Shown here: positions 149 through 28,136 of the stretch, piece by piece | Layout: every line of letters starts with the position of its first letter | Position numbering within the stretch: position 1 is the stretch's first letter | Source: a virus | Taxonomy: Duplodnaviria > Caudoviricetes | Length of the DNA stretch: 61,254 nucleotides | Strand: one strand, 5' to 3' | IMG/VR virus record: IMGVR_UViG_3300032309_001297 | Span: 1-61,254 of that record | Position numbers and translations under genes: made by a program | Notes under the pieces: generated by a model | Seen by the model: the letters and a program-made list of their open reading frames with translations, nothing else | What the model was told of the DNA's origin: nothing | Databases searched by the model: none

Positions 149-304
149 ATGAAGAAATACAATGTGATTGTCTCTGCGGAGATAAATACTTCCTTTGAGG
201 CAAATACGGCAGAAGAAGCGATTGCTTTGGCTGATGAGTGGGTTGGCGAGGAATACGGCAACCTGAAGCACAAGGCGAACTACAAGGCGGTCGAAATCAA
301 ATGA
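149..304 (+). CDS. hypothetical protein
   Basis: ATG 149 after AACGACGAAAGGA RBS. Confidence 0.7.
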   Translation: MKKYNVIVSAEINTSFEANTAEEAIALADEWVGEEYGNLKHKANYKAVEIK

Positions 305-462
305 AGATGGAACGCAAGTATGTAGTGAGACGGCGAGTTGTTTTCTCTATTGCGGTGATTGCTTTGGCTTTTGTTATCGGCTCGGTGTCTACAAACCTTT
401 GGTGGACAGGCAACGGCTATTGCTGGGGCGACGGCTTTGAGTGTATGACGGCAGGTAAGTGA
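301..462 (+). CDS. small membrane protein
   Basis: ATGA overlap with upstream gene; basic patch then one hydrophobic helix. Confidence 0.65.
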   Translation: MKMERKYVVRRRVVFSIAVIALAFVIGSVSTNLWWTGNGYCWGDGFECMTAGK

Positions 463-974
463 TGCACACTTGTCAGATACTTTTAGTAGAAGCGGAGAGC
501 CACGAAGAGGCGTTAGACAAGGTTGCTTCAGCGATTACTCATAGCGAAGAACGGTATCCGAATTGGTCAGATTGGCACGACACAAGTCCGTATGCAGGAC
601 GGTGGGATAACTTCTTCGGCAAGGGTAAAAATGTATTGCGTTATACGGAGAACCAAACACTTGCGGAGCAGAAGCTCCAAGAGTGGGTCGGCGGCAGGAA
701 AGCGGAGATGCTGCGTCACTTGGAAGAGGTAAAAACTTTGGACTTGGCGGCGCAAGTAGATGCTTACAACACGGAGAAGAACCAACCTTTTGACGGCGAT
801 GGTATGAAGTTGTATTACCTGAAGAAGTTGGCGAGTCTTTTGCAAGATGATTGGACTTGCGATACGGGCGTGTATGACTTGGAGCAACACACGGGCAACC
901 TGCAATACTTCCGTGAACGGCTCGCCGTTGCACCTGAGATGCAATACCTAGTCCCCGTAGACTTCCACTTTTAG
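459..974 (+). CDS. hypothetical protein
   Basis: 171-aa ORF coupled to upstream stop. Confidence 0.8.
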   Translation: MMHTCQILLVEAESHEEALDKVASAITHSEERYPNWSDWHDTSPYAGRWDNFFGKGKNVLRYTENQTLAEQKLQEWVGGRKAEMLRHLEEVKTLDLAAQVDAYNTEKNQPFDGDGMKLYYLKKLASLLQDDWTCDTGVYDLEQHTGNLQYFRERLAVAPEMQYLVPVDFHF

Positions 975-991
975 ACACGGCTAGAAGATGC

Positions 992-1020
992 TTGACTTGC
1001 CTGCACTTCTGAGTTAGATT
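992..1020 (+). promoter_or_regulatory. sigma-70-type promoter
   Basis: TTGACT-N17-TAGATT with CCTGCAC in spacer. Confidence 0.8.
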
Positions 1021-1048
1021 ATAAATAACAAACGACGGAAGGATAAAA

Positions 1049-1207
1049 ATGACTCAGAGATACGACATAAAGCCTGATTATGAAAGCACAGGTTGGTGGG
1101 TTGTTGATACGGCGAACCGCTATTGCCAAATAGAACTTCACCCAACCCGCGAAAGCGCGTTGCGGAAAGCAATTCAGATGGACAGACCCAAGAAGGTAAA
1201 AAGATGA
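1049..1207 (+). CDS. hypothetical protein (52 aa, below ORF-track cutoff)
   Basis: ATG after AACGACGGAAGGA; MTQRYDIKPDY...; ATGA overlap with next gene. Confidence 0.65.
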   Translation: MTQRYDIKPDYESTGWWVVDTANRYCQIELHPTRESALRKAIQMDRPKKVKR

Positions 1208-1518
1208 TAAAACCAAATCCACTTCGTGAATATGACGAGTTGCAGTTAGGCGACTTCGTTGGTGATACTCAGCGTATGGTTTTGATGCGAACTAAACTGA
1301 GTGAAAGAGTTGTTGGAGATTGTTATGCCTCTTGGGTAGTTATTGGGGTAAAAATTACCGAGTTGCACTCTTATGTCGTATGGACAGTTATTGCGACCTC
1401 AAAAGGTTTTGTTGCCGAGAGAGGCGATTACTTCTCCGAGTTGGTAGATGCCCGAAAGCGATACCAAGAGCGAGGTGGGGTAGTTACCCACCCTTCAGTT
1501 TTAGGGGGCGTGAAATGA
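1204..1518 (+). CDS. hypothetical protein
   Basis: ORF with coupled start at 1204. Confidence 0.7.
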   Translation: MIKPNPLREYDELQLGDFVGDTQRMVLMRTKLSERVVGDCYASWVVIGVKITELHSYVVWTVIATSKGFVAERGDYFSELVDARKRYQERGGVVTHPSVLGGVK

Positions 1519-1598
1519 CCTCAGGTTGGTGGGATTGGTATGGATACCCTGCCCCCAAAGATGTGACGAAAGACACAAAAGAAAAGTTGTAAATGGAG

Positions 1599-1627
1599 TT
1601 GCAATTGTCAGGAAGGTCGTGTAATGT
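1599..1627 (+). promoter_or_regulatory. sigma-70-type promoter
   Basis: TTGCAA-N17-TAATGT with CAGGAAGG in spacer. Confidence 0.6.
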
Positions 1628-1710
1628 AGTTCTTGTTGGTGAGCAAGCCTCTCCAACCACTACCCACAAAGGGTGCGTAGTGCAAAAGACAGAAAGACAG
1701 AGGTTACCAA

Positions 1711-2046
1711 ATGGCAACAGCCAAAGTAATCAGCAAGGTCGTAACTGAGGTTGCGATGGAGCGTCAGGCAGTAACGCTTGACTCAGCCACACAGGCAGTA
1801 ATCACAGAGTTTGTCGCAACACGCGATATGCTCACTTCTTTGGAAAAGACAAAGAAGGCGCTAGAAGCCAAAATCCGTGAGGCACTTGGCGAAGCAGAAG
1901 CAGGCATCGTTGATGGTGTTGTGCGTATTGAGGTCAGCCCTCGCAAGCGAACAGGTGTTGATACAAAGGCACTTGCCGAAGCCTTCCCTGAGGCTTACGA
2001 AGCGACTCAGACCACTACCGAATACTCGGTTCTAGTAGTCAAGTAA
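1711..2046 (+). CDS. hypothetical protein resembling the C-terminal extension of YqaJ-type phage nucleases
   Basis: GAGG RBS; LEAKIREALGEAE...VDTKAL..FPEAYE pattern. Confidence 0.6.
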   Translation: MATAKVISKVVTEVAMERQAVTLDSATQAVITEFVATRDMLTSLEKTKKALEAKIREALGEAEAGIVDGVVRIEVSPRKRTGVDTKALAEAFPEAYEATQTTTEYSVLVVK

Positions 2047-2056
2047 GACTTCACCG

Positions 2057-2091
2057 AAAAGCCCCTCACCGAAAGGTGGGGGGTTTTTCTT
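2057..2091 (+). terminator. intrinsic terminator
   Basis: GCCCCTCACC-GAAA-GGTGGGGGT then T run. Confidence 0.85.
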
Positions 2092-2235
2092 TGCCCAAAA
2101 TTATTCCGAAGTTGGCGAAGGTGATCGGAAAAGTGCGGGGGTAAAAATATGAGATACGCGGCGAAAATCCGGGGGACAGCTCCCGGCCCGTCCCGATACT
2201 TCCAAATAACTTTGTAAAGATTGTTCGGTAAATGC

Positions 2236-2264
2236 TTGCAAATTGCAGGAAGGTTAGGTATGAT
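2236..2264 (+). promoter_or_regulatory. sigma-70-type promoter
   Basis: TTGCAA-N17-TATGAT with TGCAGGAAGG in spacer. Confidence 0.8.
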
Positions 2265-2294
2265 TACTTTGTTCATAACGACGAAAGGACACAA

Positions 2295-2684
2295 ATGGAC
2301 ACGATGGAAAAGCAAGTAGTGGAGTTAGAAAATAACTGCACTTGCACAAATGAAGATGGAAGTTACTCAGCCGATTGTTTCGGTTGCTATGACGATGCAA
2401 AAGACAACCTGAAGTATTTGCTGAAGGGTTGGGCAGATGCCAATAACTTTGATGCGGACAAGCAAGTTGTTCGTATTCACGGCCGGGCGATGACTTGGCT
2501 ACGAAGTGAAGGCTATGCGGTTGTTGAGTTTGACTCAATACTTGATGCCCTCACACTAAATGGCGACTTCCGACTTACCTTCACGCTAGAAGGCTCAGCA
2601 CTTAGCGTGCGGAGAGGCTCACACGATGAGCCTACGGGCGCATACTTCACACTCAGCGTGATGGAGCGTCCTGAAGAAGAGTAG
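2295..2684 (+). CDS. hypothetical protein with CxC/CxxC motifs
   Basis: ATG after AACGACGAAAGGA. Confidence 0.75.
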   Translation: MDTMEKQVVELENNCTCTNEDGSYSADCFGCYDDAKDNLKYLLKGWADANNFDADKQVVRIHGRAMTWLRSEGYAVVEFDSILDALTLNGDFRLTFTLEGSALSVRRGSHDEPTGAYFTLSVMERPEEE

Positions 2685-2711
2685 TAACTGCAAGTAATAG
2701 AAGTCGGAGAG

Positions 2712-2746
2712 ACTCCCGTGTCGGAAGATGCGGGAGTTTTTCTTTT
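2712..2746 (+). terminator. intrinsic terminator
   Basis: ACTCCCGTGTC-GGAA-GATGCGGGAGT then T run. Confidence 0.75.
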
Positions 2747-3142
2747 GTCCCGATGGCTGCGGCAGCGATGCGGGGTAAAAATTTGGCACTTCGTTGATAT
2801 TCCCAGGGCTGCCGTCGGAAACTTCGCAATAATTTCTCCATATTTTCTCCGAAGGGATACCTCTGAAAGCCTTACTGGAGTTCACAGTGCGAGTAAAGTC
2901 GGCAACTCCCTAATAACTTTTGCACCTGGTGCAGGTATTTGCGCTCGCGGAAGCTGGCTGAAGACTGGCAAAATTTTTACCCCGCTGATCGCTGATCGCC
3001 AGGGCCCTGGTCAAAACTTCCAAATAACTTTCCTTCTTTAATTTTCTGGCTGGAGTTGCTTGTTTTGTGCGGGGCGTTCAGTTTTCACCACGGGGGGGAC
3101 AGAACTTCCCAATAACTTTTACAAGAAATCTCCCTGAGATAC

Positions 3143-3170
3143 TTGACAAAGTGCAGAGAGATGATAGATT
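3143..3170 (+). promoter_or_regulatory. sigma-70-type promoter
   Basis: TTGACA-N16-TAGATT with GTGCAGAGAG in spacer. Confidence 0.75.
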
Positions 3171-3203
3171 ACTACCAAGACAAAACGACACAGGGAGAAA
3201 TAA

Positions 3204-3452
3204 ATGTCTAAGCAAAACCTAGAACTAAGTGAAACAGAACTAGAAGTAAACACACTTGCTACTGCAATGTTTATGAAGTTTATGGAAAGCGAAATAGAGC
3301 GCCATAAAAATCATAAAGATTACTCAATGGATAAGTTGTTTGCCTTTATGGAAATGTATGTTCGTGCAGGAGATATTTGGGTGCGGTTGCAGAAGTTGCA
3401 AGGCGCTACACAAGAAGAGATTGCTCAATACCTATCAGAGCAGGAAGTGTAA
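3204..3452 (+). CDS. hypothetical protein
   Basis: GGGAG RBS, follows promoter. Confidence 0.75.
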   Translation: MSKQNLELSETELEVNTLATAMFMKFMESEIERHKNHKDYSMDKLFAFMEMYVRAGDIWVRLQKLQGATQEEIAQYLSEQEV

Positions 3453-3454
3453 AG

Positions 3455-3862
3455 ATGTTACCGAGATATCTTTACCACGCTACTGCGGTTTGTAATCAGG
3501 AAGGCATTGAGCGAGAGGGATTACTCTCAGCGTTCGGTGAAGTCTATGCAAGTGAAAGTGAAAATGATTGCTTAGCGTTTATGGGCTTCAGGTTGATGTC
3601 GCACTTCCATATGGGTAAAAAAGGCGAAGAGCCAGTATTCGTAAAGCACGACAGATTAGTTGTGTTTCAGATTGACACGAAGGTTACCGATAAATCTAAA
3701 TGGGAAGTGGGAACAGACCACAGTCCAGCTTTTTTTGGTAACGCAACCTCTTGGGTTCATCGCGGTTCCATAGCAAGAGAAGCCCTTGTGCGGGTTATTG
3801 AGTTCGCACCTAAACAAGAATTGTCAGATTGGAAGACTGGATTGGAAGTAAAAATCCAATGA
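3455..3862 (+). CDS. putative ADP-ribosyltransferase-fold (KptA/Tpt1-like) protein
   Basis: YLYHAT...IEREGL...VYAS...VFQID pattern. Confidence 0.5.
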   Translation: MLPRYLYHATAVCNQEGIEREGLLSAFGEVYASESENDCLAFMGFRLMSHFHMGKKGEEPVFVKHDRLVVFQIDTKVTDKSKWEVGTDHSPAFFGNATSWVHRGSIAREALVRVIEFAPKQELSDWKTGLEVKIQ

Positions 3863-4266
3863 AAACTATTATCTTTACAGAGAAGTTCAGTATCTACGTT
3901 GGACTAAATGATGCGGTTGGAATCTTTAGTTTGTATCAAACTTTTCTTTCTGAAGAAGAGTTTCTTCACCTGCGGTTAGAAGCCGTAGAGTTTTTTGTTG
4001 CCGAGTCAAGAAGTATGTCGTATCACGATAAATCATTAGACAACAAAGACTTGCGTATGGAGTTTATAGATGGCGCTATTTATGACTATCTCAATGAAGC
4101 GTTTGATGGTCGTAGAGATATAGAAACACCGATGCTGAAGTCGGCTGCCGATGATATTTTGCTGGCAGATGCTTGGCGAAGTGGGGTAAAAATCGGAAAG
4201 AAACAATGGCAACACCTAAATCAAGACGAAGATAATAGGAGGCTAGACAACTATGCAAGCAGATGA
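3859..4266 (+). CDS. hypothetical protein
   Basis: ATGA-coupled ORF. Confidence 0.7.
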   Translation: MKTIIFTEKFSIYVGLNDAVGIFSLYQTFLSEEEFLHLRLEAVEFFVAESRSMSYHDKSLDNKDLRMEFIDGAIYDYLNEAFDGRRDIETPMLKSAADDILLADAWRSGVKIGKKQWQHLNQDEDNRRLDNYASR

Positions 4267-4765
4267 AAAAGTAGTTGCGAGATTGCTGGAACTAAAACCA
4301 GACCAAAAGAAAGCGTGGGGTGGTAATAGAGCTGCGGTTGAAGTTTTAGAGTTTGACAGACTGATTGTAGATGAGATTGAGCGAGGAGTTTCGGCAGTAG
4401 AACTTGCTCTTGCTTTAGGTTATCAAAGTAGTCAAGCAATAACTAATCGCTATAAAAGAGTAAAGCAGAGTTACTCTATTGGTTTCACTCAAAAAGGTGA
4501 GGTGAAATCTACACAGAAGTTTAGAGTGGGCAGACCAAAGTCAATAACAGTAGACACTACTGCGGTAAAAATTCTCACCGAGTTGGAAATTATCTCTAAA
4601 CAATATTCCGACCTGAAGAAAAGAAAGCAAGAACTAATAATCCTTGCTATTGACAATAAAATAACTGCCCGTGAAATAGCAGAGGCTACGGGTCACACTA
4701 CTTTCAATATAAAGAACTTTCGCCATAAGAAGAATCAAGGTTTTTTAGGGGGTGATATAAAATGA
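4253..4765 (+). CDS. double helix-turn-helix DNA-binding protein
   Basis: SAVELALALGY..QAI and TAREIAEATGHT..NI segments. Confidence 0.6.
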   Translation: MQADEKVVARLLELKPDQKKAWGGNRAAVEVLEFDRLIVDEIERGVSAVELALALGYQSSQAITNRYKRVKQSYSIGFTQKGEVKSTQKFRVGRPKSITVDTTAVKILTELEIISKQYSDLKKRKQELIILAIDNKITAREIAEATGHTTFNIKNFRHKKNQGFLGGDIK

Positions 4766-5085
4766 CAAATCAAAATGACATAGAGATAAATGATGAAGAA
4801 CTAGAAGAAGATAGTGAGTTCATTACGGCTGGCGCACTTGCGGAGTATGTAGACCAAGAGTTTGTTGAAGACGAAATTGTTTCTTACCATATCTATTCTA
4901 AGTCCGATGTTGAGTCAGACCTCGGTGTTGAAATCACAGACGAACAATGGATAAAGTTCCTTAGACTCTGGGAGAACGATGAAGTTCTCAATGAAGTTCG
5001 TGCCGAGACTTGGATGCAAGCAATAGGGACTCTTCGTGAAGAACTCGGAATAGAGGAAGAAGACGATGAAGATGATGAAGGTTAG
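4762..5085 (+). CDS. highly acidic hypothetical protein
   Basis: GGGGGTG RBS; very D/E rich. Confidence 0.75.
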   Translation: MTNQNDIEINDEELEEDSEFITAGALAEYVDQEFVEDEIVSYHIYSKSDVESDLGVEITDEQWIKFLRLWENDEVLNEVRAETWMQAIGTLREELGIEEEDDEDDEG

Positions 5086-5180
5086 AGACCTTGTAAATCA
5101 GTTGCAGATGAACTATCTTCCTGATGACGAAGTTGATGTAAAAGTTGTTGTTGGGTTGATGGAAGAATCAGAGGGTAAAA

Positions 5181-5555
5181 ATGTCGGTAACTGAAGAACC
5201 ATTACACGGTTACGAGATGTGCGATGCGTGCGGGACAGCAGTCCCGTGCGTGTCTCAGGAAAAAGTTCCTGATGATGGATTGCACTTTGACTTCCTAAAC
5301 TCAGGTTATTACGGAGGTTTTACAGATAACTATCCACCAAGAGAAGGACTAAACTGGATAATGTGTCACGACTGCGTTGTGAAGTTCTTAGAGACCTTCC
5401 CGATGTTGGCTAACAAAGTCTCAGGTGGGCAACACCCTGCGGATAAAGATGCAAAGCCTTGTTGCAAATGGGCGTGGGCGTTTGATGGAGATGATGTTCT
5501 TTCGGTAGATGCCGATGGCAACTGGGTAAAAGAGAGAAAGCGAGAAGCCGTATGA
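5181..5555 (+). CDS. hypothetical Cys-rich protein
   Basis: CDAC, CHDC, CC motifs. Confidence 0.7.
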   Translation: MSVTEEPLHGYEMCDACGTAVPCVSQEKVPDDGLHFDFLNSGYYGGFTDNYPPREGLNWIMCHDCVVKFLETFPMLANKVSGGQHPADKDAKPCCKWAWAFDGDDVLSVDADGNWVKERKREAV

Positions 5556-5773
5556 GTGAAGCAGTTGATTTGATACCTCTAACAAAGAGCGTGATGTTTG
5601 TTGGGGACTACTTCTCAATGATTACAACAGTTGTTCTCAACGAGGAGTTGCGTGAAGAAGGCGAAGATGATGAGGATTTCGCTATTAGATTGGCTGGAGT
5701 TCTTATTCAAGAGTTCTACGGCTGGGACGTAGTTGCGGTCTCAAAAGAGATTGGTTTAGTAGAAGAAGAGTAG
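5552..5773 (+). CDS. acidic hypothetical protein
   Basis: ATGA-coupled ORF. Confidence 0.7.
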   Translation: MSEAVDLIPLTKSVMFVGDYFSMITTVVLNEELREEGEDDEDFAIRLAGVLIQEFYGWDVVAVSKEIGLVEEE

Positions 5774-6018
5774 AACGTGCGCTGCGGGAGAAATAGGGGT
5801 AAAAATCCTGAGTTATTCTAGAAGCTCCGCGCAGCGCTGAGAATACTCGCGTAGTGCGATGAGGCGGCTCTACCTTCCGCCGCATCTCTCCTCCTACTCC
5901 CTGAGGGGGAGAGGTGTCGGTTGAGGAGCACTTTTAGGCTCGCTCAGCCCCTCTAAAGACGGAAACTGATGCGGTTAGCCTCCTTATAGAACCAAGCAAT
6001 CAGTAGTAAAGTTCTTGT

Positions 6019-6267
6019 ATGTTGATACCCGGAATAGTTGATAAAGAGTTCCATCAGAATGGCTCTGCCGCGCCTTTTGTCGCCGCCATCATTGACGACC
6101 CAAATGACGGAGAAACCAAACTTGTTATTATGTTTGAGGAGTTAGGGCACATTGCGGTGTTGTCGTTAGACAGACTGATTGACTCTGAAGATATTTCGGT
6201 GAAGAACAATTCCCATCACGCTGATCGTCACGAAGACCTTCTTCGAGATCTGCTGTGGGAAGACTAA
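6019..6267 (+). CDS. hypothetical protein, probably leaderless
   Basis: TAAAGT -10-like box 6 nt before ATG, no SD. Confidence 0.65.
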   Translation: MLIPGIVDKEFHQNGSAAPFVAAIIDDPNDGETKLVIMFEELGHIAVLSLDRLIDSEDISVKNNSHHADRHEDLLRDLLWED

Positions 6268-6329: not shown

Positions 6330-6893
6330 ATGACTACGATTGCTGCGATACAAGGGGAAGGCTGGGCTGTTGTTGCCTATGATTCCCGCGTCTGCGAAGA
6401 CAATCGTTCTTTTATCCTGCCGAAAGATGCTGGGAAAGTTGTTCGTAATGGTCAATACATTTTAGGTGCGGCCGGGGATATGCGTGCCGTGAACCTTTTG
6501 GCGCATTCATTCAAGCCACCTCTACCTGCTGCTACTGATATTGGCATCAAACTGGACAAGTTCATCTCCTCCAAATTCATACCTGCGCTCAAAGCCTGCT
6601 TTGATGAGGCTCAATACGGTGAAAAGGGAGAACAAGACTCAAATGTTCTAGTGATTGTGCACGGAACTATCTATGAGATTGGCTCTGGCTACGATTGGTG
6701 TCACGAAGAAAGAGGCTTTCACGCTCTGGGAACTGGGGCTGACTACGCATTAGGTGCGATGTATCAAGCTTCAGAGGGTAAAAAAAGAACGATGTCCCAC
6801 GCACGCAGCAGCGCAAAGAACGCGGTCGCCATCGCTTGCCGTCTTGACCCCAACTCAGGTGAGCCTGTTTATCTCTTGACCCAGAGTTCCTGA
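6330..6893 (+). CDS. proteasome beta-subunit/HslV-like Ntn threonine peptidase
   Basis: MTTIAA N-terminus, DSR, GK, GAAG, ALGTGADYALG, D..SG motifs. Confidence 0.8.
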   Translation: MTTIAAIQGEGWAVVAYDSRVCEDNRSFILPKDAGKVVRNGQYILGAAGDMRAVNLLAHSFKPPLPAATDIGIKLDKFISSKFIPALKACFDEAQYGEKGEQDSNVLVIVHGTIYEIGSGYDWCHEERGFHALGTGADYALGAMYQASEGKKRTMSHARSSAKNAVAIACRLDPNSGEPVYLLTQSS

Positions 6894-6956
6894 GTAGATT
6901 TCCTCCAGGCTGGATAGCACTTCCAAATAACTTTCCAAAGATTTTCTTGCAAAGAC

Positions 6957-6985
6957 TTGCATCTTCCTGCACTTCCTGTTATAGT
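6957..6985 (+). promoter_or_regulatory. sigma-70-type promoter
   Basis: TTGCAT-N17-TATAGT with CTTCCTGCAC in spacer. Confidence 0.75.
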
Positions 6986-7011
6986 TGTCCTAACGACGAA
7001 AGGACAGCAAG

Positions 7012-7314
7012 ATGTATGGATTACCAGACAGCGCCATCTATGGCACTTACAAGCGTGCAAGGAGAAGTATGAAGCCTGCAAAGCGTGGAGATAACACCAC
7101 CTACATTTATAACCCAAAGGCACTAGATAAGGCACAAGGTGATGAAGAGTTTTTAGGGTTAGCAATTCTTCTTCCTATGATTGCATTAGGAAAGTTGTTT
7201 GACTTCATTGGTTCATCTGCCGAGCGCATTGGTAATCGTGCCGAGCGTTGGGATAGGAAGATGCGAGCCAAGCGTGCCCGACAAATGCTTGACGCAAAAA
7301 AGAAAGTTTCATAA
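7012..7314 (+). CDS. hypothetical basic protein with hydrophobic segment
   Basis: AACGACGAAAGGA RBS. Confidence 0.7.
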   Translation: MYGLPDSAIYGTYKRARRSMKPAKRGDNTTYIYNPKALDKAQGDEEFLGLAILLPMIALGKLFDFIGSSAERIGNRAERWDRKMRAKRARQMLDAKKKVS

Positions 7315-7319
7315 CCTAC

Positions 7320-7348
7320 TTGCAAAATGCAGGAAGGTCTGATAGACT
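7320..7348 (+). promoter_or_regulatory. sigma-70-type promoter
   Basis: TTGCAA-N17-TAGACT with TGCAGGAAGG in spacer. Confidence 0.75.
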
Positions 7349-7383
7349 TACATCTGTAAGACAAAACGACGAAAGGAAACGAA

Positions 7384-7572
7384 ATGATAAATGCAGTTGA
7401 GAACTGGTTGGGTGTAAGCCTTACTAAGCGAGGACGCTATGTTGTTGGGACAATCTTGTTCCTTCTCTTCCTTGCGGTGTTTGCGCTCGCAGACCACATC
7501 ACGACACCTGAAGCGTGCCGAGTTCCACTAGAAGAGATGAGTTCTTTCTGCAAGAACTTGCTCTACCCATAA
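7384..7572 (+). CDS. small membrane protein
   Basis: RBS motif; one TM helix, two Cys. Confidence 0.7.
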   Translation: MINAVENWLGVSLTKRGRYVVGTILFLLFLAVFALADHITTPEACRVPLEEMSSFCKNLLYP

Positions 7573-7594
7573 GCGACGAAAGGACAGGGTAAAA

Positions 7595-8101
7595 ATGTCA
7601 AAGCATAAAGGTGGACGAACGCTCCCCCAAAAAGTATGGACGCCGTTTCAAGAAGCAGTCCCATACGCACACGGGAAGGAAGCAAAAGAATCACTACGGG
7701 AACACGAAACCCTTTGGGCTAACTCGTTCTATGTAGTTCATAAGTTTCTGTTTGAGGCAACTGAAGAAGGTGCAATCCACCTGAGCATCAGACATCAAAA
7801 CAGAAAAGCAATAAGAGATTGGCGACACTTCCAACGCATCAAGAACGAACTTGTTGGTGCGGAAAGAGAAGCCATAGAAATCTTCCCACCCGAAAGCCAA
7901 CTTGTTGATACGGCTAATCAGTATCACTTGTTTGTCTTGCCTGTGGGAGCAACCTCTCCGTTCACTTGGAACGCTGGTCGTAGAGTGACTAGCGACCCCG
8001 ACGACGAAGAGACCCGTAATTGGATAGCGTCTTTAGGTGGCGACCCTGACACAATCGGGGGAGCAGTCCAAAGACCCATAGAAGAAGGATACGAAAGGTA
8101 A
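7595..8101 (+). CDS. conserved phage protein
   Basis: HLSIR..DWRHFQRIKNELVG.EREAIEIFP..SQLVD.ANQYHL family pattern. Confidence 0.7.
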   Translation: MSKHKGGRTLPQKVWTPFQEAVPYAHGKEAKESLREHETLWANSFYVVHKFLFEATEEGAIHLSIRHQNRKAIRDWRHFQRIKNELVGAEREAIEIFPPESQLVDTANQYHLFVLPVGATSPFTWNAGRRVTSDPDDEETRNWIASLGGDPDTIGGAVQRPIEEGYER

Positions 8102-8103
8102 AA

Positions 8104-8304
8104 ATGAAGAGTGCAAACATCGCACAACAGGCTTCGGAACTTTATGACAAAGGTTTTGCCATAGAAGCCGTAGCAAAAGAACTTGGAGTCGCATACCGAA
8201 CTGCACGCAAGGCGATTTATTCGCAGGGCACAGTCGTTAGAGACCCATCAACTCGTTTGGTTGGAAGAACCCGACCTGACAAGAAAAGGAACACAGATGC
8301 CTAA
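8104..8304 (+). CDS. helix-turn-helix protein
   Basis: LYDKGFAIEAVAKELGVAYRTARKAI. Confidence 0.7.
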   Translation: MKSANIAQQASELYDKGFAIEAVAKELGVAYRTARKAIYSQGTVVRDPSTRLVGRTRPDKKRNTDA

Positions 8305-8446
8305 GAACATTGTTTGGACTTCAGTAATCGCTGCGCTCGCTTGCGTTGCGTCAGTAATCGCTGCGGTGACTAACACACCTGACTTGGTTATCTCGTTTGG
8401 GTTTATTGCCCTTACATCTGCAATCCTCAGTTCAAGAGAGAAATAA
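8297..8446 (+). CDS. small two-TM membrane protein
   Basis: AAAGGA RBS, two hydrophobic segments. Confidence 0.6.
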   Translation: MPKNIVWTSVIAALACVASVIAAVTNTPDLVISFGFIALTSAILSSREK

Positions 8447-8477
8447 CAACTACTAATGAAAGACGAAAGGACGCCAA

Positions 8478-8891
8478 ATGTGGCTATTTAGTGAAACAGG
8501 TTTTGTATCTGCGGTCGTAGACCTGCAGGACAAAAAGAAAATGATTGTTCGTGGTCGTGACAAAAAGAGTTTAGAAGCTCTGGCGAAGTTCGCTGGGGTA
8601 AAAATTCTAGATACCCCGCAGCGGGACTACCCACATCGTGTGTTTGTCTCGAAGAAGAAGTATGCGGAGTGGGTGTTGAAGACCATCGAGGAGATGCAAT
8701 ACAACAACTACAAGTCTCGTATGTATCAGACTCGTGGTGCAGACTTCACTCACAGCCTCTCCGAGGTGTGGTCAGTTATGCATCAGGTCTCAGAGAACTA
8801 TGTGAAGCCGACCTACTCCTACACGGGGTTTGCGGACGACTCATACTACGAAGATGAGTATCCAAGTCTCTTTCCAAAAAAGTCAGGCTAA
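8478..8891 (+). CDS. conserved hypothetical phage protein
   Basis: MWLFSETGFVSAV...VRGR...DYPHR; GACGAAAGGA RBS. Confidence 0.75.
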   Translation: MWLFSETGFVSAVVDLQDKKKMIVRGRDKKSLEALAKFAGVKILDTPQRDYPHRVFVSKKKYAEWVLKTIEEMQYNNYKSRMYQTRGADFTHSLSEVWSVMHQVSENYVKPTYSYTGFADDSYYEDEYPSLFPKKSG

Positions 8892-8895
8892 TAAC

Positions 8896-8924
8896 TTGAC
8901 TTCCCTGCAAATGTCAGGTAGATT
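8896..8924 (+). promoter_or_regulatory. sigma-70-type promoter
   Basis: TTGACT-N17-TAGATT with CCCTGCA in spacer. Confidence 0.75.
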
Positions 8925-8953
8925 GGTCTAAAGCCAACAGGGAGGCAAATCAA

Positions 8954-9574
8954 ATGACACAAATGACATCAACATACGCACCAGCATCTGAGAAGCAAAT
9001 CAAGTTTCTAGATGACTTGGTGAAGAGCCGAGAGATTCCATCAGAGATGGTCTCTGCATACCTTGCGGAGAAAGAAACTCTTGACATCAAGAAGGCATCA
9101 AGCCTGATTGACCTTTTCCTGAAGTATCCCAAGATGGTTTTCCAGCCAACCTTGCCATCTCCAGCCTTCGCTGAATTGGTAAAAAAAGCAGAACCTAACC
9201 TCTATGGAGAACTTATTGGGGCACTTCAGGGAGTGCCTAAAAGCAAGTATGCGATACCAGTTTCTGAGTTGATGACTGACCTTCTGAAGGACAAAGTGCA
9301 CGGAGATTTAGTCTTCGTTGAGGTCAAGGAATATATGAAGAAGACCTACATCAAGAAGTTATATGGTTCAGTTGGAGCGTTCACTCGTGTCCGACCAGCC
9401 GTTGAGGACGCCCTTGTGTTTACACGGATAATCAAGACTGACCCATACAAATACACCAAGTTGTTTGCTGAACATTACCAATGCTGTGGCAAATGCGGTG
9501 CTGAACTCACAGACCCTAAGAGTCGTGAGTTGATGCTTGGACCAGAGTGCAGGAAGGCGTTCATACTCCCGTAA
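8954..9574 (+). CDS. DUF6011-like zinc-binding domain protein
   Basis: C-terminal CGKCGAELTDPKSRELMLGPEC; N-terminal ASEKQIKFL. Confidence 0.7.
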   Translation: MTQMTSTYAPASEKQIKFLDDLVKSREIPSEMVSAYLAEKETLDIKKASSLIDLFLKYPKMVFQPTLPSPAFAELVKKAEPNLYGELIGALQGVPKSKYAIPVSELMTDLLKDKVHGDLVFVEVKEYMKKTYIKKLYGSVGAFTRVRPAVEDALVFTRIIKTDPYKYTKLFAEHYQCCGKCGAELTDPKSRELMLGPECRKAFILP

Positions 9575-9588
9575 CCTTTTGTTTGGGT

Positions 9589-9625
9589 AAATCCACCTTT
9601 TGAGGTAGTCTTAGGGGGTGGATTT
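9589..9625 (+). terminator. hairpin, probable terminator
   Basis: AAATCCACCTTTTGAG...CTTAGGGGGTGGATTT inverted repeat. Confidence 0.55.
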
Positions 9626-9747
9626 CCCTGCAACTGTGCTAGGGTTGAGGAGGTAAAGACGTATTAGACAAAATGATGAGGGCTATCTAACGCCCTTCGG
9701 TGCAGTTTCAATAGCACCTGTCCCTATCCCCTAACAAAGGAGCAACA

Positions 9748-10413
9748 ATGCGTATTTCTAAACGCGAAGCAGAAACAGTAGTGTTCGGTTTGTCAATGGC
9801 TTTCGTGCTATTGAGCGCCAGCGCTGCGGTCGCCCAAGCAGTTGGAAAAGACGATAGCCAATCCAATGTAGTAGCAGTATCAGATACAACAACGACATCA
9901 ACGACAGTAAAGAAGAACGTAGTGATCCCTGATCGCGTCGATAGAGGGGTAAAAATCTACTCACTCAAAGCAGCTTCAGTCACTACCCAGCCTCCAGCCC
10001 CATCAGTTCTCGCTAAGTATGCGGAACGTCGAGCACCATTGGAGCCTGAAGAACTCAAAGAACTTCTCCAAGCAGTTGGATTCGAGGGACAAGCCCTCAA
10101 ACTTGCTTGGGGCATTGTGATGCGAGAGTCCCGTGGAGGTCCTACCTCACACAACGGGAACTCCGATACAGGAGATAACTCCTATGGATTATTCCAAATC
10201 AATATGATTGGTGGTCTCGGAGCAGACCGCCGTGAAAAATACGGTCTTACAACCAACGAAGAACTATTCAACCCAGTAGCCAATGCGCGGATTGCCTTCC
10301 TAATGTCAGGTGGAGGAGAAGATTTCGGCGCTTGGGGGGTAGGCAAGAACGCTTATAATGGTGGGAAAGTTGGTGACCTCTATTCGTGGGTTGCTAAGTT
10401 CCCATCAAAGTAG
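9748..10413 (+). CDS. exported lytic transglycosylase/lysozyme-like protein
   Basis: Signal-like N-terminus, Thr linker, IVMRESRG...SYGLFQIN...FNP..NA. Confidence 0.8.
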   Translation: MRISKREAETVVFGLSMAFVLLSASAAVAQAVGKDDSQSNVVAVSDTTTTSTTVKKNVVIPDRVDRGVKIYSLKAASVTTQPPAPSVLAKYAERRAPLEPEELKELLQAVGFEGQALKLAWGIVMRESRGGPTSHNGNSDTGDNSYGLFQINMIGGLGADRREKYGLTTNEELFNPVANARIAFLMSGGGEDFGAWGVGKNAYNGGKVGDLYSWVAKFPSK

Positions 10414-10426
10414 GAAGGAAACCTAT

Positions 10427-10858
10427 ATGTCAGAAGAAATCAAACCAACCGAGCCTGTTGTTCCTACAGTAGATGCGGTTGTTGTTGTTCCAGAACCAGA
10501 AGTTGTTGTGAAGCAAGAAGCTGTAGCTGTAGCTGCAGCAGCTCCTGAAGCTAAGAAGGGTAAAAATTTCGATCAGTCGAACGTAGCTGCCAAAGGTTCT
10601 GGGGTTTATGTCCAGATGGCTGCGCTTGTTTGCTGCGGAAGCGCTCGCAATTCACGCTCTGTCATCTCAGTTCAGAAGCGTCTGATGGAACTTGGTTACT
10701 CCTCTGCAGGAGATGAGAAGAGTGGTTACTTCGGTGAACACACTTGCTCTGCTCTACAAGACTTCCAAAAAGACAAGCGAATAGAATCAAAAGATTGTGC
10801 TGACTTAGCAACGATTGAGGCTTTATTTAGTGGCACGGCAGTAGAAATCCTGCCTTAG
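10427..10858 (+). CDS. peptidoglycan-binding domain protein
   Basis: VQKRLMELGY...GYFGEHT..ALQDFQK (PG_binding_1-like). Confidence 0.7.
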   Translation: MSEEIKPTEPVVPTVDAVVVVPEPEVVVKQEAVAVAAAAPEAKKGKNFDQSNVAAKGSGVYVQMAALVCCGSARNSRSVISVQKRLMELGYSSAGDEKSGYFGEHTCSALQDFQKDKRIESKDCADLATIEALFSGTAVEILP

Positions 10859-10870
10859 TTCTTTCCTATC

Positions 10871-10910
10871 AACGCCCAGTCTCTCATCTATTATTGAGGG
10901 GCTGGGCGTT
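10871..10910. terminator. hairpin/possible terminator
   Basis: AACGCCCAGTCTCTCA...TGAGGGGCTGGGCGTT. Confidence 0.55.
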
Positions 10911-10962
10911 GTTGCGTCCCGTAGCAACGTCATTAGTGCGGACTATGGAAGGACGGCACAAA

Positions 10963-11238
10963 ATGGCAGCAAATACAGAAAAGACCAAAATGGTTCTATC
11001 AAGAATTATGGCGGTGTTCGCAGCATCTGGGTTATCTGTGATTGGGGCTGGCGCTATCGCTGGCGTAGAACTCACACAAGCAATCTTGATGGCTGGTATA
11101 GGTGGCGTGGCGACCGTAGTTGAGGGGTTGAGTCGCGCTTATCTACAAGATGGGAAACTCACTGCGGCAGAGATAGATGATGTCTTTGCGGCTGTAGATA
11201 AGAAAAGGGCACCTAGCAAGGGTGCAGCATCTAAGTAG
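10963..11238 (+). CDS. holin-like membrane protein
   Basis: Two hydrophobic segments, charged C-terminus, next to muralytic genes. Confidence 0.55.
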   Translation: MAANTEKTKMVLSRIMAVFAASGLSVIGAGAIAGVELTQAILMAGIGGVATVVEGLSRAYLQDGKLTAAEIDDVFAAVDKKRAPSKGAASK

Positions 11239-11253
11239 TTAGACCTGTGAACA

Positions 11254-11295: not shown

Positions 11296-11550
11296 CTAAA
11301 GTCCTTCTACCGAACAGAGAATTGTTTCCGCATAAATACCTTTAGCGTTCTTCTCGTTTGAGAACCAACCTATGAAGACTCGTCCGTCTCTCTCATCGTC
11401 ATAGTATGCGCCTCGTATATCTAGCCCACACTTATTGCACCTGTCTAGATATTCTTTCGTGTGCGGTTCACTATTGTGACTGTTGTTAGGAATATGTCTC
11501 TTTAGTATTTCTGCTACTTCTGCATCTAGTGGTTCTGTCTTTGTTGTCAT
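11296..11550 (-). CDS. hypothetical protein with H/CxxC motifs
   Basis: Start at MTTKTEP. Confidence 0.65.
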   Translation of the reverse strand: MTTKTEPLDAEVAEILKRHIPNNSHNSEPHTKEYLDRCNKCGLDIRGAYYDDERDGRVFIGWFSNEKNAKGIYAETILCSVEGL

Positions 11551-11552
11551 TG

Positions 11553-11669
11553 TTAGCCCCAGATGAAGCAGGCAATTACTGCAACTGCTACCCCTATGAA
11601 AGCACCAATAGGTGCACCAAAATCTGCGTTCTCGTCTAGCCAATCTTGTAATGCGGTAAATGGGTTCAT
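11553..11669 (-). CDS. small membrane protein (38 aa)
   Basis: MNPFTALQDWLDENADFGAPIGAFIGVAVAVIACFIWG downstream of promoter. Confidence 0.55.
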   Translation of the reverse strand: MNPFTALQDWLDENADFGAPIGAFIGVAVAVIACFIWG

Positions 11670-11719
11670 AGTCGTCGTTTCTCTTTCTGTCCTTTGCTAC
11701 TCCCTGTAGCAATAAGTGA

Positions 11720-11748
11720 ACTATGCCAACCTTCCTGCACTTTGTCAA
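11720..11748 (-). promoter_or_regulatory. sigma-70-type promoter
   Basis: TTGACA-AAGTGCAGGAAGGTTGG-CATAGT on minus strand. Confidence 0.8.
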
Positions 11749-11775
11749 GTCCTCTACGGCGTGTCGTAGAAAAGA

Positions 11776-11808
11776 AAAAACCCCCCTGCCTAAGCAAGGG
11801 GGCTCTTC
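11776..11808 (-). terminator. intrinsic terminator
   Basis: CCCCCTGC-CTAA-GCAAGGGGG hairpin, A run on plus strand (T run on minus). Confidence 0.7.
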
Positions 11809-11818
11809 TGTCCCGTGA

Positions 11819-12193
11819 CTAGATAAGTGTAATGCTAGGTTCTACGAACTTCTGCACCTTTGCTACGGTCAGTTTCATAATGTCTACCTGCTCCTGTGTG
11901 AGTCCAATAGTCTCACCTTCTGAGTCTGTCCCACCTGTGAGAACTATGTCCCCGACTAGGTAGTCCGTGTGTGCCCCGAATACTTTGTCCCACATATATT
12001 GTGCGTATGGGTTATGCGGTAGCCCTGTCAGTTTGCCTTCTTCGTTGCACCACATTGAGAGGTCTGAGGCTAGGTCTATCGCCTGCACCCACCCACCTAC
12101 TGCGGTCTGTAGTTTGTTGAGGCTGTCCGAGGCTAGGTCTAACTCTGTGACCTCTCCTGTTGTTGTTACCTGTAAGGCTGTCTTTGTTGTCAT
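11819..12193 (-). CDS. DUF3846-like protein
   Basis: LQTAVGGWVQAI...MWCNEEGK...N..A...LVGDIVLTG. Confidence 0.8.
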   Translation of the reverse strand: MTTKTALQVTTTGEVTELDLASDSLNKLQTAVGGWVQAIDLASDLSMWCNEEGKLTGLPHNPYAQYMWDKVFGAHTDYLVGDIVLTGGTDSEGETIGLTQEQVDIMKLTVAKVQKFVEPSITLI

Positions 12194-12232
12194 TGGGTGT
12201 CCTTTGTTTTGTTGTTACTTGCTTACGGTGTA

Positions 12233-12261
12233 AGTCTATAGACCTCTCTGCACTTTGTCAA
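12233..12261 (-). promoter_or_regulatory. sigma-70-type promoter
   Basis: TTGACA-AAGTGCAGAGAGGTCTA-TAGACT. Confidence 0.8.
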
Positions 12262-12264
12262 GTC

Positions 12265-12504
12265 TTATCCGTTAGTTAGTTTGTCGTCCTTGTAGCAATC
12301 GTAGGACTCGTGTGTGTCCTCACGCCTTCCACATAGGCAGACCTTTGCGGTGTAGACCTTTGGTCTGCGGTTAGGCAGACTGCCTACTGCTATTACCTCT
12401 ACAACCTCTACCCCTAGTTTCGTGGCTAAAGCTTGTGCGTCTGCCTGTCTTGCGGTGCTGTAGGTGTATTTTTTACCCGACTTAGGGTTAGTTACTTGAT
12501 ACAT
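12265..12504 (-). CDS. hypothetical protein
   Basis: AAAGGA RBS; CLC..H..C motif. Confidence 0.65.
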   Translation of the reverse strand: MYQVTNPKSGKKYTYSTARQADAQALATKLGVEVVEVIAVGSLPNRRPKVYTAKVCLCGRREDTHESYDCYKDDKLTNG

Positions 12505-12603
12505 CTTTGGTGTCCTTTGTTTGTTGCGGTGTGTGTGTGTTGCGGTGGCATTGGAAAGCCCCTCAGGTCAGGGGGTGACCTAAGGGGCTCTAGTCCTAGT
12601 GGG

Positions 12604-12846
12604 TTAGGCGCTTACTGCCTGCAAGATTTGGACTCGTGCGGTGCGACCCCAGATGATGTCCTGCACTTCTGCCATCTCCATCTTGCGGAGTTGCTTAGGT
12701 CCGTTTCCGTCAATCTCCTCAGTAACGATGAAGCGGGTGATGTCGCAAGAACCTGCGAACAACTCACGAACCTTGTTCAGGTTGTCTAGGTGAAAGTAAT
12801 AAGTAACTCCGCCTGCTGTGATTTCTACTCCATAAGTTGTATACAT
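12604..12846 (-). CDS. hypothetical protein
   Basis: GGGAG RBS before MYTTYG. Confidence 0.7.
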   Translation of the reverse strand: MYTTYGVEITAGGVTYYFHLDNLNKVRELFAGSCDITRFIVTEEIDGNGPKQLRKMEMAEVQDIIWGRTARVQILQAVSA

Positions 12847-28132: not shown

Positions 28133-28136
28133 AACT

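What the first reader, a model, noticed from the sequence alone, without database searches (positions are those of the whole stretch)
175..12690. Strand-polar TGCGG pentamer saturating the early region: candidate Chi-like end-protection signal
Seen: about 50 TGCGG on the + strand in the first 12.7 kb (about 4/kb, eye count; e.g. 175, 351, 662, 2134, 3484, 3912, 4561, 7473, 8831, 10634, 12101, 12451, 12541), only a handful of CCGCA there, and roughly a dozen TGCGG in the remaining 48 kb. Polarity stays on + across the minus-strand genes at 11.3-12.9 kb, so codon usage or transcription direction does not explain it. Known: Bacillus subtilis AddAB recognises the pentamer Chi AGCGG when entering from the 3' side of the Chi strand. 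Inference: these sites are oriented for a helicase-nuclease entering leftwards from a DNA end near 13-13.4 kb, so they may be the host's Chi equivalent (I know of none defined for actinobacterial AdnAB) or a polar signal for a DNA-entry or translocation motor.
Basis: partly seen in the sequence, partly recalled or inferred. Interest (0 to 1): 0.85.

Follow-up and report, generated by a model that had tools for sequence, protein, structure and literature searches.

The report
One-strand TGCGG array in phage terminal repeat
The early 13 kb of this freshwater actinobacterial phage is packed with the five-letter word TGCGG on one DNA strand only; related phages carry similar one-strand arrays, in cultured ones inside their long terminal repeat, so it looks like a selected DNA signal of unknown reader.

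Summary
TGCGG occurs 53 times on the + strand in 1-13000, against 3 CCGCA there. The remaining 48 kb has 13 TGCGG and 18 CCGCA. It is the top 5-mer. Every single-base neighbour counts 23 or fewer, and no shuffle that keeps the codons reached 53 (maximum 36 of 1000). Sites lie in all frames, in intergenic DNA and antisense inside four minus-strand genes.

All 32 related IMG/VR loci examined show the same bias upstream of the portal gene (690:99). Cultured relatives have exact terminal repeats of about 20 kb (Mimi 19,868 bp, Pumpernickel 19,963 bp). Polar arrays of TGCSG (S = C or G), or of other short words, sit in those repeats. The array's right edge at 12.7-13.4 kb matches the expected right boundary of such a repeat, by gene layout and by a step in contig depth.

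The function is not shown. My best guess (0.35) is a Chi-like polar signal for an end-processing helicase-nuclease. Against it, six candidate host-lineage genomes show no leading-strand enrichment of TGCGG. A signal for the phage's own packaging or replication machinery is nearly as likely.

The parts
175..12688 (+). Array of 53 TGCGG sites, all on the + strand (about 4 per kb overall; 13 sites between 11163 and 12688). It is cut by the left end of the contig.
   Evidence: Shuffle controls. Sites are better conserved than random 5-mers in relatives.
1..11238 (+). Block of about 27 small + strand genes, mostly of unknown function. It includes an SLT lysozyme-like gene (9748-10413) and a peptidoglycan-binding gene (10358-10858). 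By layout it corresponds to the + strand gene block of the terminal repeats of Mimi and Pumpernickel.
   Evidence: for the ORFs and Pfam matches. Architecture of the relatives.
11296..12933 (-). Four minus-strand ORFs (11296-11748, 11819-12193, 12265-12504, 12604-12933). A TTGACA-type promoter-like repeat occurs three times among them (11722-11753, 12235-12266, 12895-12926). The ORFs carry 9 TGCGG sites on their antisense strand.
   Evidence: DUF3846 match. Mimi has four minus-strand genes at the right end of its terminal repeat.
12934..13488 (.). Non-coding region rich in repeats: TGATGACCTTGA-type units, AAGACCTAGACCC twice, and an A-rich run at 13280-13330. This is the predicted right (inner) boundary of the terminal repeat. 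The TGCGG array stops just before it.
   Evidence: Depth step. It resembles the non-coding repeat region at the inner edge of the T5 left terminal repeat (bioRxiv 10.1101/866236, passages read).
13489..16752 (+). Start of the structural module: four small ORFs, then the portal gene (14998-16752). TGCGG falls to background here (3 sites in 13.4-16 kb).

Best explanation
The TGCGG sites form a selected, cis-acting, strand-polar array that fills what is most likely a long direct terminal repeat. This is the block of small early genes present at both ends of the virion DNA in this phage family. My preferred mechanism is Chi-like. A helicase-nuclease that enters a free genome end and tracks one strand meets many copies of the word in one orientation, and it is switched from degrading the DNA to sparing and recombining it. 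The enzyme could be the host's AdnAB-type enzyme or the phage's own SNF2 helicase with its PD-(D/E)XK nuclease. The result would be that the redundant terminal DNA is protected or used to circularise or concatenate the genome.

Shown here: the enrichment, its polarity, its independence from coding, its conservation with turnover among relatives, and the presence of arrays inside the terminal repeats of cultured relatives.

Inferred: that the window's region is itself a terminal repeat ending near 13 kb, that an end-processing enzyme reads the word, and which end and which strand are read.
For: 1. Selection on the DNA word itself. Counts are 53:3, and 0 of 3000 codon-preserving shuffles reached 53. 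Sites occur in all frames, in intergenic DNA and antisense in minus-strand genes.

2. Conservation with turnover.
- 60 of 61 aligned sites are kept in two relatives at 95-96% identity, against 0.83-0.86 for control 5-mers.
- 23 of 50 are kept in five relatives at about 70-75% identity, against 0.23-0.39 for controls, with 35 sites found only in the relative.
- All 32 related loci examined have more TGCGG than CCGCA upstream of the portal gene (690:99). Downstream the ratio is 55:147. Most of that upstream DNA does not align with the window.

3. Link to terminal repeats.
- Mimi and Pumpernickel have exact repeats of 19,868 and 19,963 bp.
- Mimi has 85 TGC[CG]G sites in the first 5.7 kb of its repeat (78:5 in the first 5 kb). 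They cross a minus-strand gene.
- Atuin has TGCCG 50:6 and TGCGG 34:5 in its first 5 kb.
- Zooman has TGCGG 35:8 and TGCCG 32:7 in 2.5-10 kb.
- In the window, gene layout and the contig-depth step (X14: 345-374, then 281, then 175; X2: 38-49, then 27.5) place the right edge of the repeat at 12.5-13.4 kb.

4. Precedent. Lambdoid phages LLS and MD8 carry terminally clustered, uniformly oriented host Chi sites, 20:3 and 32:0 (PMC12315714, passages read).

5. A possible reader exists. All 5 genomes searched in the candidate host genus have an adjacent pair of ORFs of about 950-1050 aa with PD-(D/E)XK domains, which looks like AdnAB. None of the 5 has RecC. The window itself encodes an SNF2 helicase, a PD-(D/E)XK nuclease, an AAA_24 ATPase and DUF669.

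6. The word differs by one base from the B. subtilis AddAB Chi, AGCGG.
Against: 1. No chromosomal Chi signature. In 6 of 6 candidate host-lineage genomes TGCGG is 41-51% on the leading strand and 0.79-0.95 of expectation. The complement CCGCA ranks 3, 256, 37, 703, 561 and 85 of 1024 words for leading-strand bias. The host assignment rests on a single phage contig binned into a metagenome-assembled genome, and that contig itself lacks the array.

2. The AdnAB literature I read says there is no information that a Chi exists for AdnAB, and speculates that the enzyme is Chi-independent (PMC5314763, passages read).

3. This phage has its own recombination module, unlike the Chi-rich lambdoid phages (PMC12315714).

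4. Position in cultured relatives. Arrays abut the left physical end on the strand whose 5' end is there. For the written word, that is the inactive orientation for that end.

5. Microbacterium phages from three host species share a different polar word (AACCG or RACCG) at the left end of the repeat. Cece lacks a TGCSG array. This fits a reader specific to a phage clade at least as well as a host enzyme.

6. Cinna, a more distantly related phage (portal about 31% identical) that infects Zooman's host, has no such array.

7. The SPO1 terminal redundancy shows only weak AGCGG polarity, 28:16.
Confidence: 0.35

Rival explanations
1. The array is a cis signal for the phage's own DNA machinery acting on the terminal repeat. 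One option is a polar signal read by the packaging terminase as it approaches the repeat's cut site, comparable to lambda cosQ. Another is binding sites for the small terminase. A third is T7-style primase sites: template 5'-CSGCA-3' with a cryptic 3' base would give a GCSG primer.
For: - Arrays lie in the first few kb next to the left cut site in 6 of 6 cultured phages examined: TGCSG in Mimi and Atuin, AACCG or RACCG in Zooman, Pumpernickel and Cece, and (TGTAGC)n in Forza.
- The AACCG-type word is shared by three Microbacterium phages from three host species, which suggests specificity of a phage clade.
- Cece gene 1, at the left end of the record, is annotated as small terminase.
- Host chromosomes show no signature for the word.
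- A pentamer with one cryptic base matches the format of T7 primase sites. This is from recall only.
Against: - 53 to 85 copies spread over 6-20 kb far exceeds any pac or cos element I know of.
- The TGCSG array is strong in Zooman, weak in Pumpernickel and absent in Cece, although these phages are close relatives. An essential packaging element should not vary like that.
- Primase sites should be needed across the whole genome, but the late 48 kb has only 0.27-0.37 per kb.
- In the window's lineage the array is densest at the right edge of the presumed repeat, not at the left cut site.
Confidence: 0.3
2. The array relates to host defence. The words would be recognition sites of an asymmetric-site restriction or defence enzyme (Type III or Type ISP-like). 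Kept head-to-tail, they cannot trigger cutting, and the array may act as a decoy in the DNA that enters first.
For: - The words are short (5-6 nt) and asymmetric, and they differ between lineages: TGCGG; TGCCG in L036 (23:1); possibly TGGCA in L029 (33:4), GATTG in L066 (22:0 in 6 kb) and ACCTA in L099 (25:1).
- Presence and absence differ among close relatives on different hosts.
- The one-strand bias of EcoP15I sites in T7 is a precedent. This is from recall only.
Against: - Evasion explains loss of one orientation but not a 5-fold gain of the other.
- The rest of the window holds both orientations (13 and 18), so head-to-head pairs remain.
- The same TGCSG word occurs in phages of Arthrobacter, Microbacterium and freshwater hosts. 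That is broader than a strain-level restriction specificity.
Confidence: 0.1
3. The array is a by-product with no function of its own: unusual amino-acid or codon usage, a regional mutation bias, or an RNA-level signal in long rightward early transcripts.
For: - The early region has strong G over C skew (0.13-0.18 in 1-7.5 kb) and unusual GCG codon use.
- 26 of 37 sites in + genes share one reading frame.
Against: - All one-base neighbours of the word are at background.
- Codon-preserving shuffles fail to reproduce the count.
- Site density in non-coding DNA (7 sites in about 2 kb) and antisense in minus-strand genes (9 sites) equals that in + genes.
- Sites are better conserved than control 5-mers.
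- The same word is enriched in unrelated gene content across 32 loci and in phages with 54-60% G+C.
- In Mimi, Atuin and Forza the polarity ignores gene direction.
Confidence: 0.05

Closest known systems
Terminally clustered, uniformly oriented Chi sites in lambdoid phages LLS (E. coli) and MD8 (P. aeruginosa) (PMC12315714; passages read)
   Same: A short asymmetric word is strongly over-represented, almost entirely in one orientation (20:3 and 32:0), and concentrated towards one genome end.
   Different: In those phages the word is the host's proven or presumed Chi octamer, they lack a recombination module, and their ends are cos sites. Here the word is a pentamer with no known reader. The phage has a recombination module. 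The array fills a presumed 13-20 kb terminal repeat at 4-15 sites per kb. Candidate host genomes show no Chi-like skew.
B. subtilis AddAB Chi (AGCGG) and the homologous AdnAB enzyme of actinobacteria (PMC5314763, passages read; the Chi sequence itself is recalled)
   Same: A G+C-rich pentamer that differs at one base. AdnA corresponds to the Chi-scanning domain of AddB. AdnAB-like gene pairs are present in 5 of 5 genomes of the candidate host genus.
   Different: No Chi is known for AdnAB, and the paper speculates that it is Chi-independent. Nothing here shows recognition.
Long terminal repeats of T5-like phages, carrying pre-early genes and transferred first (bioRxiv 10.1101/866236 and PMC10644984; passages read)
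   Same: A siphovirus of about 120-190 kb whose 10-20 kb direct terminal repeat is made of small early genes, with a non-coding repeat-rich region at the repeat's inner edge. The T5 preprint points out that the end entering first is exposed to exonuclease before any phage protein is made.
   Different: No polar pentamer array is described for T5 in the passages I read. Two-step DNA transfer has not been shown for this actinophage family. The terminal repeat of the window's own phage is inferred, not seen.
One-strand bias of EcoP15I sites in phage T7, and pentameric T7 primase sites (both recalled; no paper read)
   Same: Short asymmetric words with strand polarity in a phage genome.
   Different: Those biases are genome-wide. 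Here the bias is confined to one region, and the rest of the genome carries both orientations.

Membership tests
Chi (orientation-dependent regulator of RecBCD/AddAB-type helicase-nucleases) | Short asymmetric sequence present in one orientation relative to a dsDNA end | tested here: inconclusive
   Uniform orientation is met (53:3). The position of the physical end is only inferred: near 13 kb by layout and contig depth. In cultured relatives the arrays sit next to the left end.
Chi (orientation-dependent regulator of RecBCD/AddAB-type helicase-nucleases) | Over-represented in the host chromosome and co-oriented with replication | tested here: not met
   TGCGG is 41-51% on the leading strand and 0.79-0.95 of expectation in 6 of 6 genomes tested: 3 of the candidate host genus and 3 of its order, each over up to 200 kb either side of dnaA. 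Caveat: the host assignment rests on one binned phage contig.
Chi (orientation-dependent regulator of RecBCD/AddAB-type helicase-nucleases) | The host has a cognate helicase-nuclease | tested here: met
   An adjacent pair of ORFs of about 950-1056 aa, both with PDDEXK_1, is present in 5 of 5 genomes searched. RecC (PF04257) is found in 0 of 5.
Chi (orientation-dependent regulator of RecBCD/AddAB-type helicase-nucleases) | The enzyme recognises the word and its nuclease activity is attenuated | not testable with these tools
   This needs a biochemical resection assay.
Long direct terminal repeat carrying early genes (T5 / SPO1 type) | The same sequence is present at both ends of the virion DNA | tested here: inconclusive
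   Exact repeats of 19,868 bp (Mimi) and 19,963 bp (Pumpernickel) are shown for relatives. For the window there is only a 1.6-2.1-fold step in contig depth in 4 of 4 runs. No raw reads were available.
Long direct terminal repeat carrying early genes (T5 / SPO1 type) | A block of small early genes, bounded by a non-coding repeat region | tested here: met
   About 27 small + strand ORFs and 4 minus-strand ORFs, followed by non-coding repeats at 12934-13488. The layout matches Mimi.
Type III restriction-site strand bias (T7 / EcoP15I type) | The site is absent in one orientation across the whole genome | tested here: not met
   Outside the array both orientations occur (13 TGCGG, 18 CCGCA).
Dispersed or tandem repeat family | Copies share sequence beyond the core word | tested here: not met
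   Flanks are unconserved apart from T or A at the next base. Spacing is irregular, 11-1006 nt with CV 0.83.

The most novel reading that the evidence does not exclude
TGCSG, or its complement read on the strand that ends 3' at the genome terminus, is the first Chi-like regulatory sequence for an actinobacterial AdnAB-type helicase-nuclease. This phage family loads its long terminal repeat with it to survive or exploit end resection. More broadly, polar arrays of short words in long terminal repeats may be a general, so far undescribed way for phages to manage their ends. The word changes with lineage: TGCGG, TGCCG, AACCG, TGTAGC.
Probability: 0.2. Interest if true: 0.9.

Novelty: new variant of a known kind. 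Interest (0 to 1): 0.72.

Why it matters
Whether AdnAB, the main end-resection enzyme of actinobacteria, responds to any Chi-like sequence is an open question. PMC5314763 says there is no information on it.

This finding gives a concrete candidate word. The word is also strongly enriched in phages that can be cultured on laboratory hosts: Mimi and Atuin on Arthrobacter globiformis, and Zooman on Microbacterium foliorum. The question therefore becomes testable at the bench.

A whole family of large actinophages marks its roughly 20 kb terminal repeats with dense arrays of short words on one strand, and the word changes between lineages. I found no description of this in two full-text searches. 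It bears on how long-repeat phages protect, package or recombine their ends.

Tried and rejected
- DNA searches of 1-13400 and of 14998-33404 against the phage collection found nothing. Relatives were reached only through the portal protein.
- The window has no large terminase gene (tblastn with the DSL-LC01 and Pumpernickel terminases) and no tRNA.
Rejected.
- Contig ends as a marker of a physical end: of the 80 loci, 59 contigs end within 10 kb upstream of the portal gene, and 32 of these end 1-3.5 kb upstream. Downstream the figures are 21 of 51. The difference is too weak to use.
- The branch point at 2058-2090 in three runs, and a joint from 2087 to 13372 in X1 with only 25 letters on the shorter side, coincide with a terminator hairpin. 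I read this as a strain mosaic boundary, not a genome end.
- SPO1 as a positive control for Chi in a terminal repeat: AGCGG is 28:16 in the 13.2 kb redundancy against 19:18 in the next 37 kb. Mild enrichment and weak polarity, so not informative.
- Cinna, a more distantly related phage (portal about 31% identical) that infects Zooman's host, has no array.
- Alternative words in some relatives (TGGCA in L029, GATTG in L066 and L067, ACCTA in L099) were not checked with codon-aware controls. They are leads only.
- Logan contigs cannot show read starts or true depth. The depth step is one figure per contig and may be affected by strain mixtures.
- Rows left out: and one search used 32 of the 80 loci, namely those I picked as having several kb of flank upstream of the portal gene (the shortest has 5.1 kb; a few loci with similar flanks were not taken). 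L036/L037 and L002/L015 are near-duplicates.
- In one search I pooled five relatives (L017, L058, L012, L016, L030) for the distant set. G3rc duplicates L058 and was not counted twice.
- Supplementary files of papers were not consulted. The supplements of PMC12315714 may list more phages rich in Chi sites.

Full report
What the window is. The window is an IMG/VR viral contig of 61,254 nt, classed linear, with a CheckV completeness estimate of 46%. G+C is about 45%. It encodes a portal protein, a major head protein, a major tail protein, a tape measure protein and DNA polymerase I. It also encodes an SNF2 helicase, a PD-(D/E)XK nuclease, an AAA_24 ATPase and DUF669. DNA searches against the phage collection gave nothing. 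By portal protein the nearest named relative is the metagenome-assembled Actinomycetia phage DSL-LC01 (75% identity). Next come Microbacterium phages Pumpernickel, Zooman and Cece (58-64%), Arthrobacter phages Mimi and Atuin (about 47%) and Gordonia phages (about 37-40%). IMG/VR holds at least 597 related stretches, of which 80 loci were kept. Sequencing runs that hold the stretch are freshwater or lake metagenomes from 6 studies.

The observation. TGCGG occurs 53 times on the + strand between 175 and 12684, against 3 CCGCA. The remaining 48 kb has 13 and 18. Zero-order expectations are 11.4 and 8.4 for the early part, and about 31 and 30 for the late part. TGCGG is the top 5-mer by z in the early region. 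Every single-substitution neighbour has 1-23 copies. Flanks are unconserved apart from T or A at the following base in 42 of 53 sites. Spacing is irregular.

Three codon-aware shuffles of 1000 replicates each gave means of 19-26 and maxima of 30-36, never 53. Of the 53 sites, 37 lie in + strand genes, and 26 of those read NNT GCG GNN. Nine lie antisense inside the four minus-strand ORFs at 11296-12933, and 7 are intergenic. The minus-strand ORFs are real genes. One matches DUF3846 at E 3.4e-20. A TTGACAAAGTGCAG promoter-like repeat occurs three times on the minus strand among them. The late-region counts match a maximal-order Markov expectation that I worked out by hand from the counts: about 10.6 for TGCGG against 13 observed, and about 23 for CCGCA against 18 observed. 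I therefore see enrichment in the early region and no special avoidance elsewhere.

Conservation. I examined 32 related IMG/VR loci, picked from the 80 as having several kb of flank upstream of the portal gene. In all 32 the flank upstream of the portal gene has more TGCGG than CCGCA, and in 25 of them at least three times as many. Totals are 690:99, or 3.14 against 0.45 per kb. Downstream the totals are 55:147, with TGCGG ahead in 3 of 32 loci. In DSL-LC01 the array spans 32.5-47.5 kb (90:23) and ends about 1 kb before the portal gene. In G003 it spans 20 kb just upstream of the portal gene (58 sites).

Only 2-4 kb of the window's early region aligns at the DNA level with relatives at about 70-75% identity. 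Where it does align, 23 of 50 sites are kept, against 0.23-0.39 for control 5-mers, and 35 new sites appear in the relatives. In two relatives at 95-96% identity, 60 of 61 sites are kept, against 0.83-0.86 for controls. This is the pattern expected for a distributed signal whose density is selected for, rather than a set of fixed sites.

The region is probably a long terminal repeat.
- Pumpernickel's record starts and ends with an identical 19,963-bp sequence, and Mimi's with an identical 19,868-bp sequence.
- In both phages the repeat is the block of small + strand genes at the left of the map. In Mimi it also contains four minus-strand genes at its right end, then a gap before the next genes.
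- The window has the same order: small + strand genes to 11238, four minus-strand ORFs to 12933, a non-coding repeat-rich stretch at 12934-13488, then the structural genes.
- Logan contig depths in four runs from four studies are higher over the early region. In X14 they are 345-374 for four contigs within 1-11.3 kb, 281 for a contig spanning 12540-14379, and 175 at 16.9-18.7 kb. In X2 they are 38-49 against 27.5. In X1 they are 13.3 against 8.2. In X6 they are 9-17 against 6.8.
- These are single k-mer depths per contig and can be distorted by strain mixtures. I take them as weak support for a collapsed repeat whose right edge lies at about 12.5-13.4 kb. Raw reads were not on offer, so no terminus was mapped.

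The signal generalises. Mimi has 85 TGC[CG]G sites on the top strand in the first 5.7 kb of its repeat. The first is at nt 134 from the physical left end, and the ratio is 78:5 in the first 5 kb. Sites are often 5-6 nt apart. The array runs straight across a minus-strand ParB-like gene and then stops. Atuin shows TGCCG 50:6 and TGCGG 34:5 in its first 5 kb. Zooman shows TGCGG 35:8 and TGCCG 32:7 at 2.5-10 kb. Pumpernickel shows TGCGG 20:3 at 5-10 kb. Cece and Forza show none. The IMG/VR relative L036 uses mainly TGCCG (23:1).

An unbiased scan turned up further polar arrays at the left end of the same repeats: AACCG 37:2 in Zooman at 0-3 kb, 32:5 in Pumpernickel at 0-4 kb, RACCG words in Cece at 0-5 kb, and a (TGTAGC)n array (TGTAG 22:1) in Forza at 0-2 kb. 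One-strand arrays of short words near the left end of the genome therefore appear to be a family trait, with the word varying by lineage. In the window's freshwater lineage the array is longer, and it is densest at the right edge (13 sites in 11163-12688).

Tests of the Chi idea. The only related stretch in 185,579 species genomes is a phage contig binned into a metagenome-assembled Actinomycetota genome. That contig itself lacks the array. The genus of that genome has genomes of 0.7-1.9 Mb, and the three I sampled have 51-54% G+C.

In three of those genomes, over up to 200 kb either side of dnaA, TGCGG is 41.4, 48.1 and 43.9% on the leading strand. The complement CCGCA ranks 3, 256 and 37 of 1024 words. 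Much of that bias follows the coding strand. In G049 the sense-strand densities are 1.69 against 0.89 per kb in genes co-oriented with replication, and 1.27 against 1.03 in genes oriented against it. In three high-G+C genomes of the same order, all four words lie at 47-53%. The chromosomal signature expected of a Chi is therefore absent in these candidates.

The genus does carry AdnAB-like gene pairs (5 of 5 genomes) and no RecC (0 of 5). PMC5314763 states that nothing is known of a Chi for AdnAB, and speculates that the enzyme is Chi-independent. PMC12315714 provides the nearest precedent: lambdoid phages with terminally clustered, uniformly oriented Chi sites.

Orientation. For a RecBCD or AddAB-type enzyme the word is read on the strand that ends 3' at the entry point (PMC12315714 and PMC5314763). 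In the window the array is densest at the presumed right edge of the repeat, which fits. In Mimi, Atuin and the Microbacterium phages the arrays sit at the left edge of the repeat. That fits one of two readings. Either an enzyme enters the left physical end and reads the complement, or the array works as a last barrier at the inner edge of the right-hand copy. I cannot decide between them.

Verdict. The array is real, strongly selected, conserved, and tied to the terminal repeat. Its reader is unknown. I put a Chi-like signal for an end-processing enzyme at 0.35, a signal for the phage's own packaging or replication machinery at 0.30, a defence-related arrangement of sites at 0.10, and a by-product at 0.05. 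The remainder is unassigned.

Noticed in passing
window 12934-13488: A non-coding stretch between the minus-strand genes and the structural module. It holds direct repeats (ACTTCCTAAYAACTTGATGACCTTGA twice, TGATGACCTTGA-type units, AAGACCTAGACCC twice) and an A-rich run. It could be an origin, a packaging site, or an injection-stop-like region as in T5.
   Followed up: partly
window 3143-3156 (+), 11735-11748 (-), 12248-12261 (-), 12908-12921 (-): Four exact copies of TTGACAAAGTGCAG. Each has a TAnnnT-like element at -10 spacing, as read by eye in the sequences. They are probably strong early promoters. A variant appears in a related strain's contig (table 5c).
   Followed up: partly
window 624-10567 (+): GGTAAAAAT occurs 14 times exactly on the + strand of the early region (44 matches with up to 1 mismatch in the whole window, against 17.7 expected). 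Several copies overlap an ATG start (5181, 7595, 8104). This looks like a gene-junction motif combining Shine-Dalgarno, stop and start.
   Followed up: partly
window 18089-27532 and 28086-33404 (+): Two giant ORFs (3147 and 1772 aa) lie between the portal and major head protein genes. The larger one has an RNase_T / DEDD exonuclease domain at aa 1117-1281. The relatives have similar giant genes (DSL-LC01 52800-62669; Mimi gene 77, annotated DNA helicase).
   Followed up: partly
Zooman L158:1-3000; Pumpernickel L084:1-4000; Cece L222:1-5000; Forza L159:1-2000: Other one-strand arrays at the physical left end of cultured relatives: AACCG 37:2, AACCG 32:5, RACCG words, and a (TGTAGC)n array (TGTAG 22:1). 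Zooman and Pumpernickel carry an AACCG array followed by a TGCSG array.
   Followed up: partly
L036:1-8000; L029:1-8000; L066:1-6000; L099:1-8500: Some IMG/VR relatives show a different top polar word upstream of the portal gene: TGCCG 23:1, TGGCA 33:4, GATTG 22:0 and ACCTA 25:1. Only TGCCG is clearly a variant of the same motif. The others were not checked against codon-aware controls.
   Followed up: partly
window 2058-2095: A terminator-like hairpin (CCCCTCACC GAAA GGTGGGGGG followed by a T run). Contigs of three independent runs branch here, so it looks like a mosaic breakpoint between strains.
   Followed up: partly
window 40704-42077 and 42102-44417 (+): Two adjacent ORFs both match tape measure protein families, matching successive parts of phrog_4197. 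The tape measure gene may be split, or read through.
   Followed up: no
SPO1 L220:1-13185: The B. subtilis Chi word AGCGG is denser in the SPO1 terminal redundancy (28 + 16 in 13.2 kb) than in the next 37 kb (19 + 18). It is only weakly polar.
   Followed up: no
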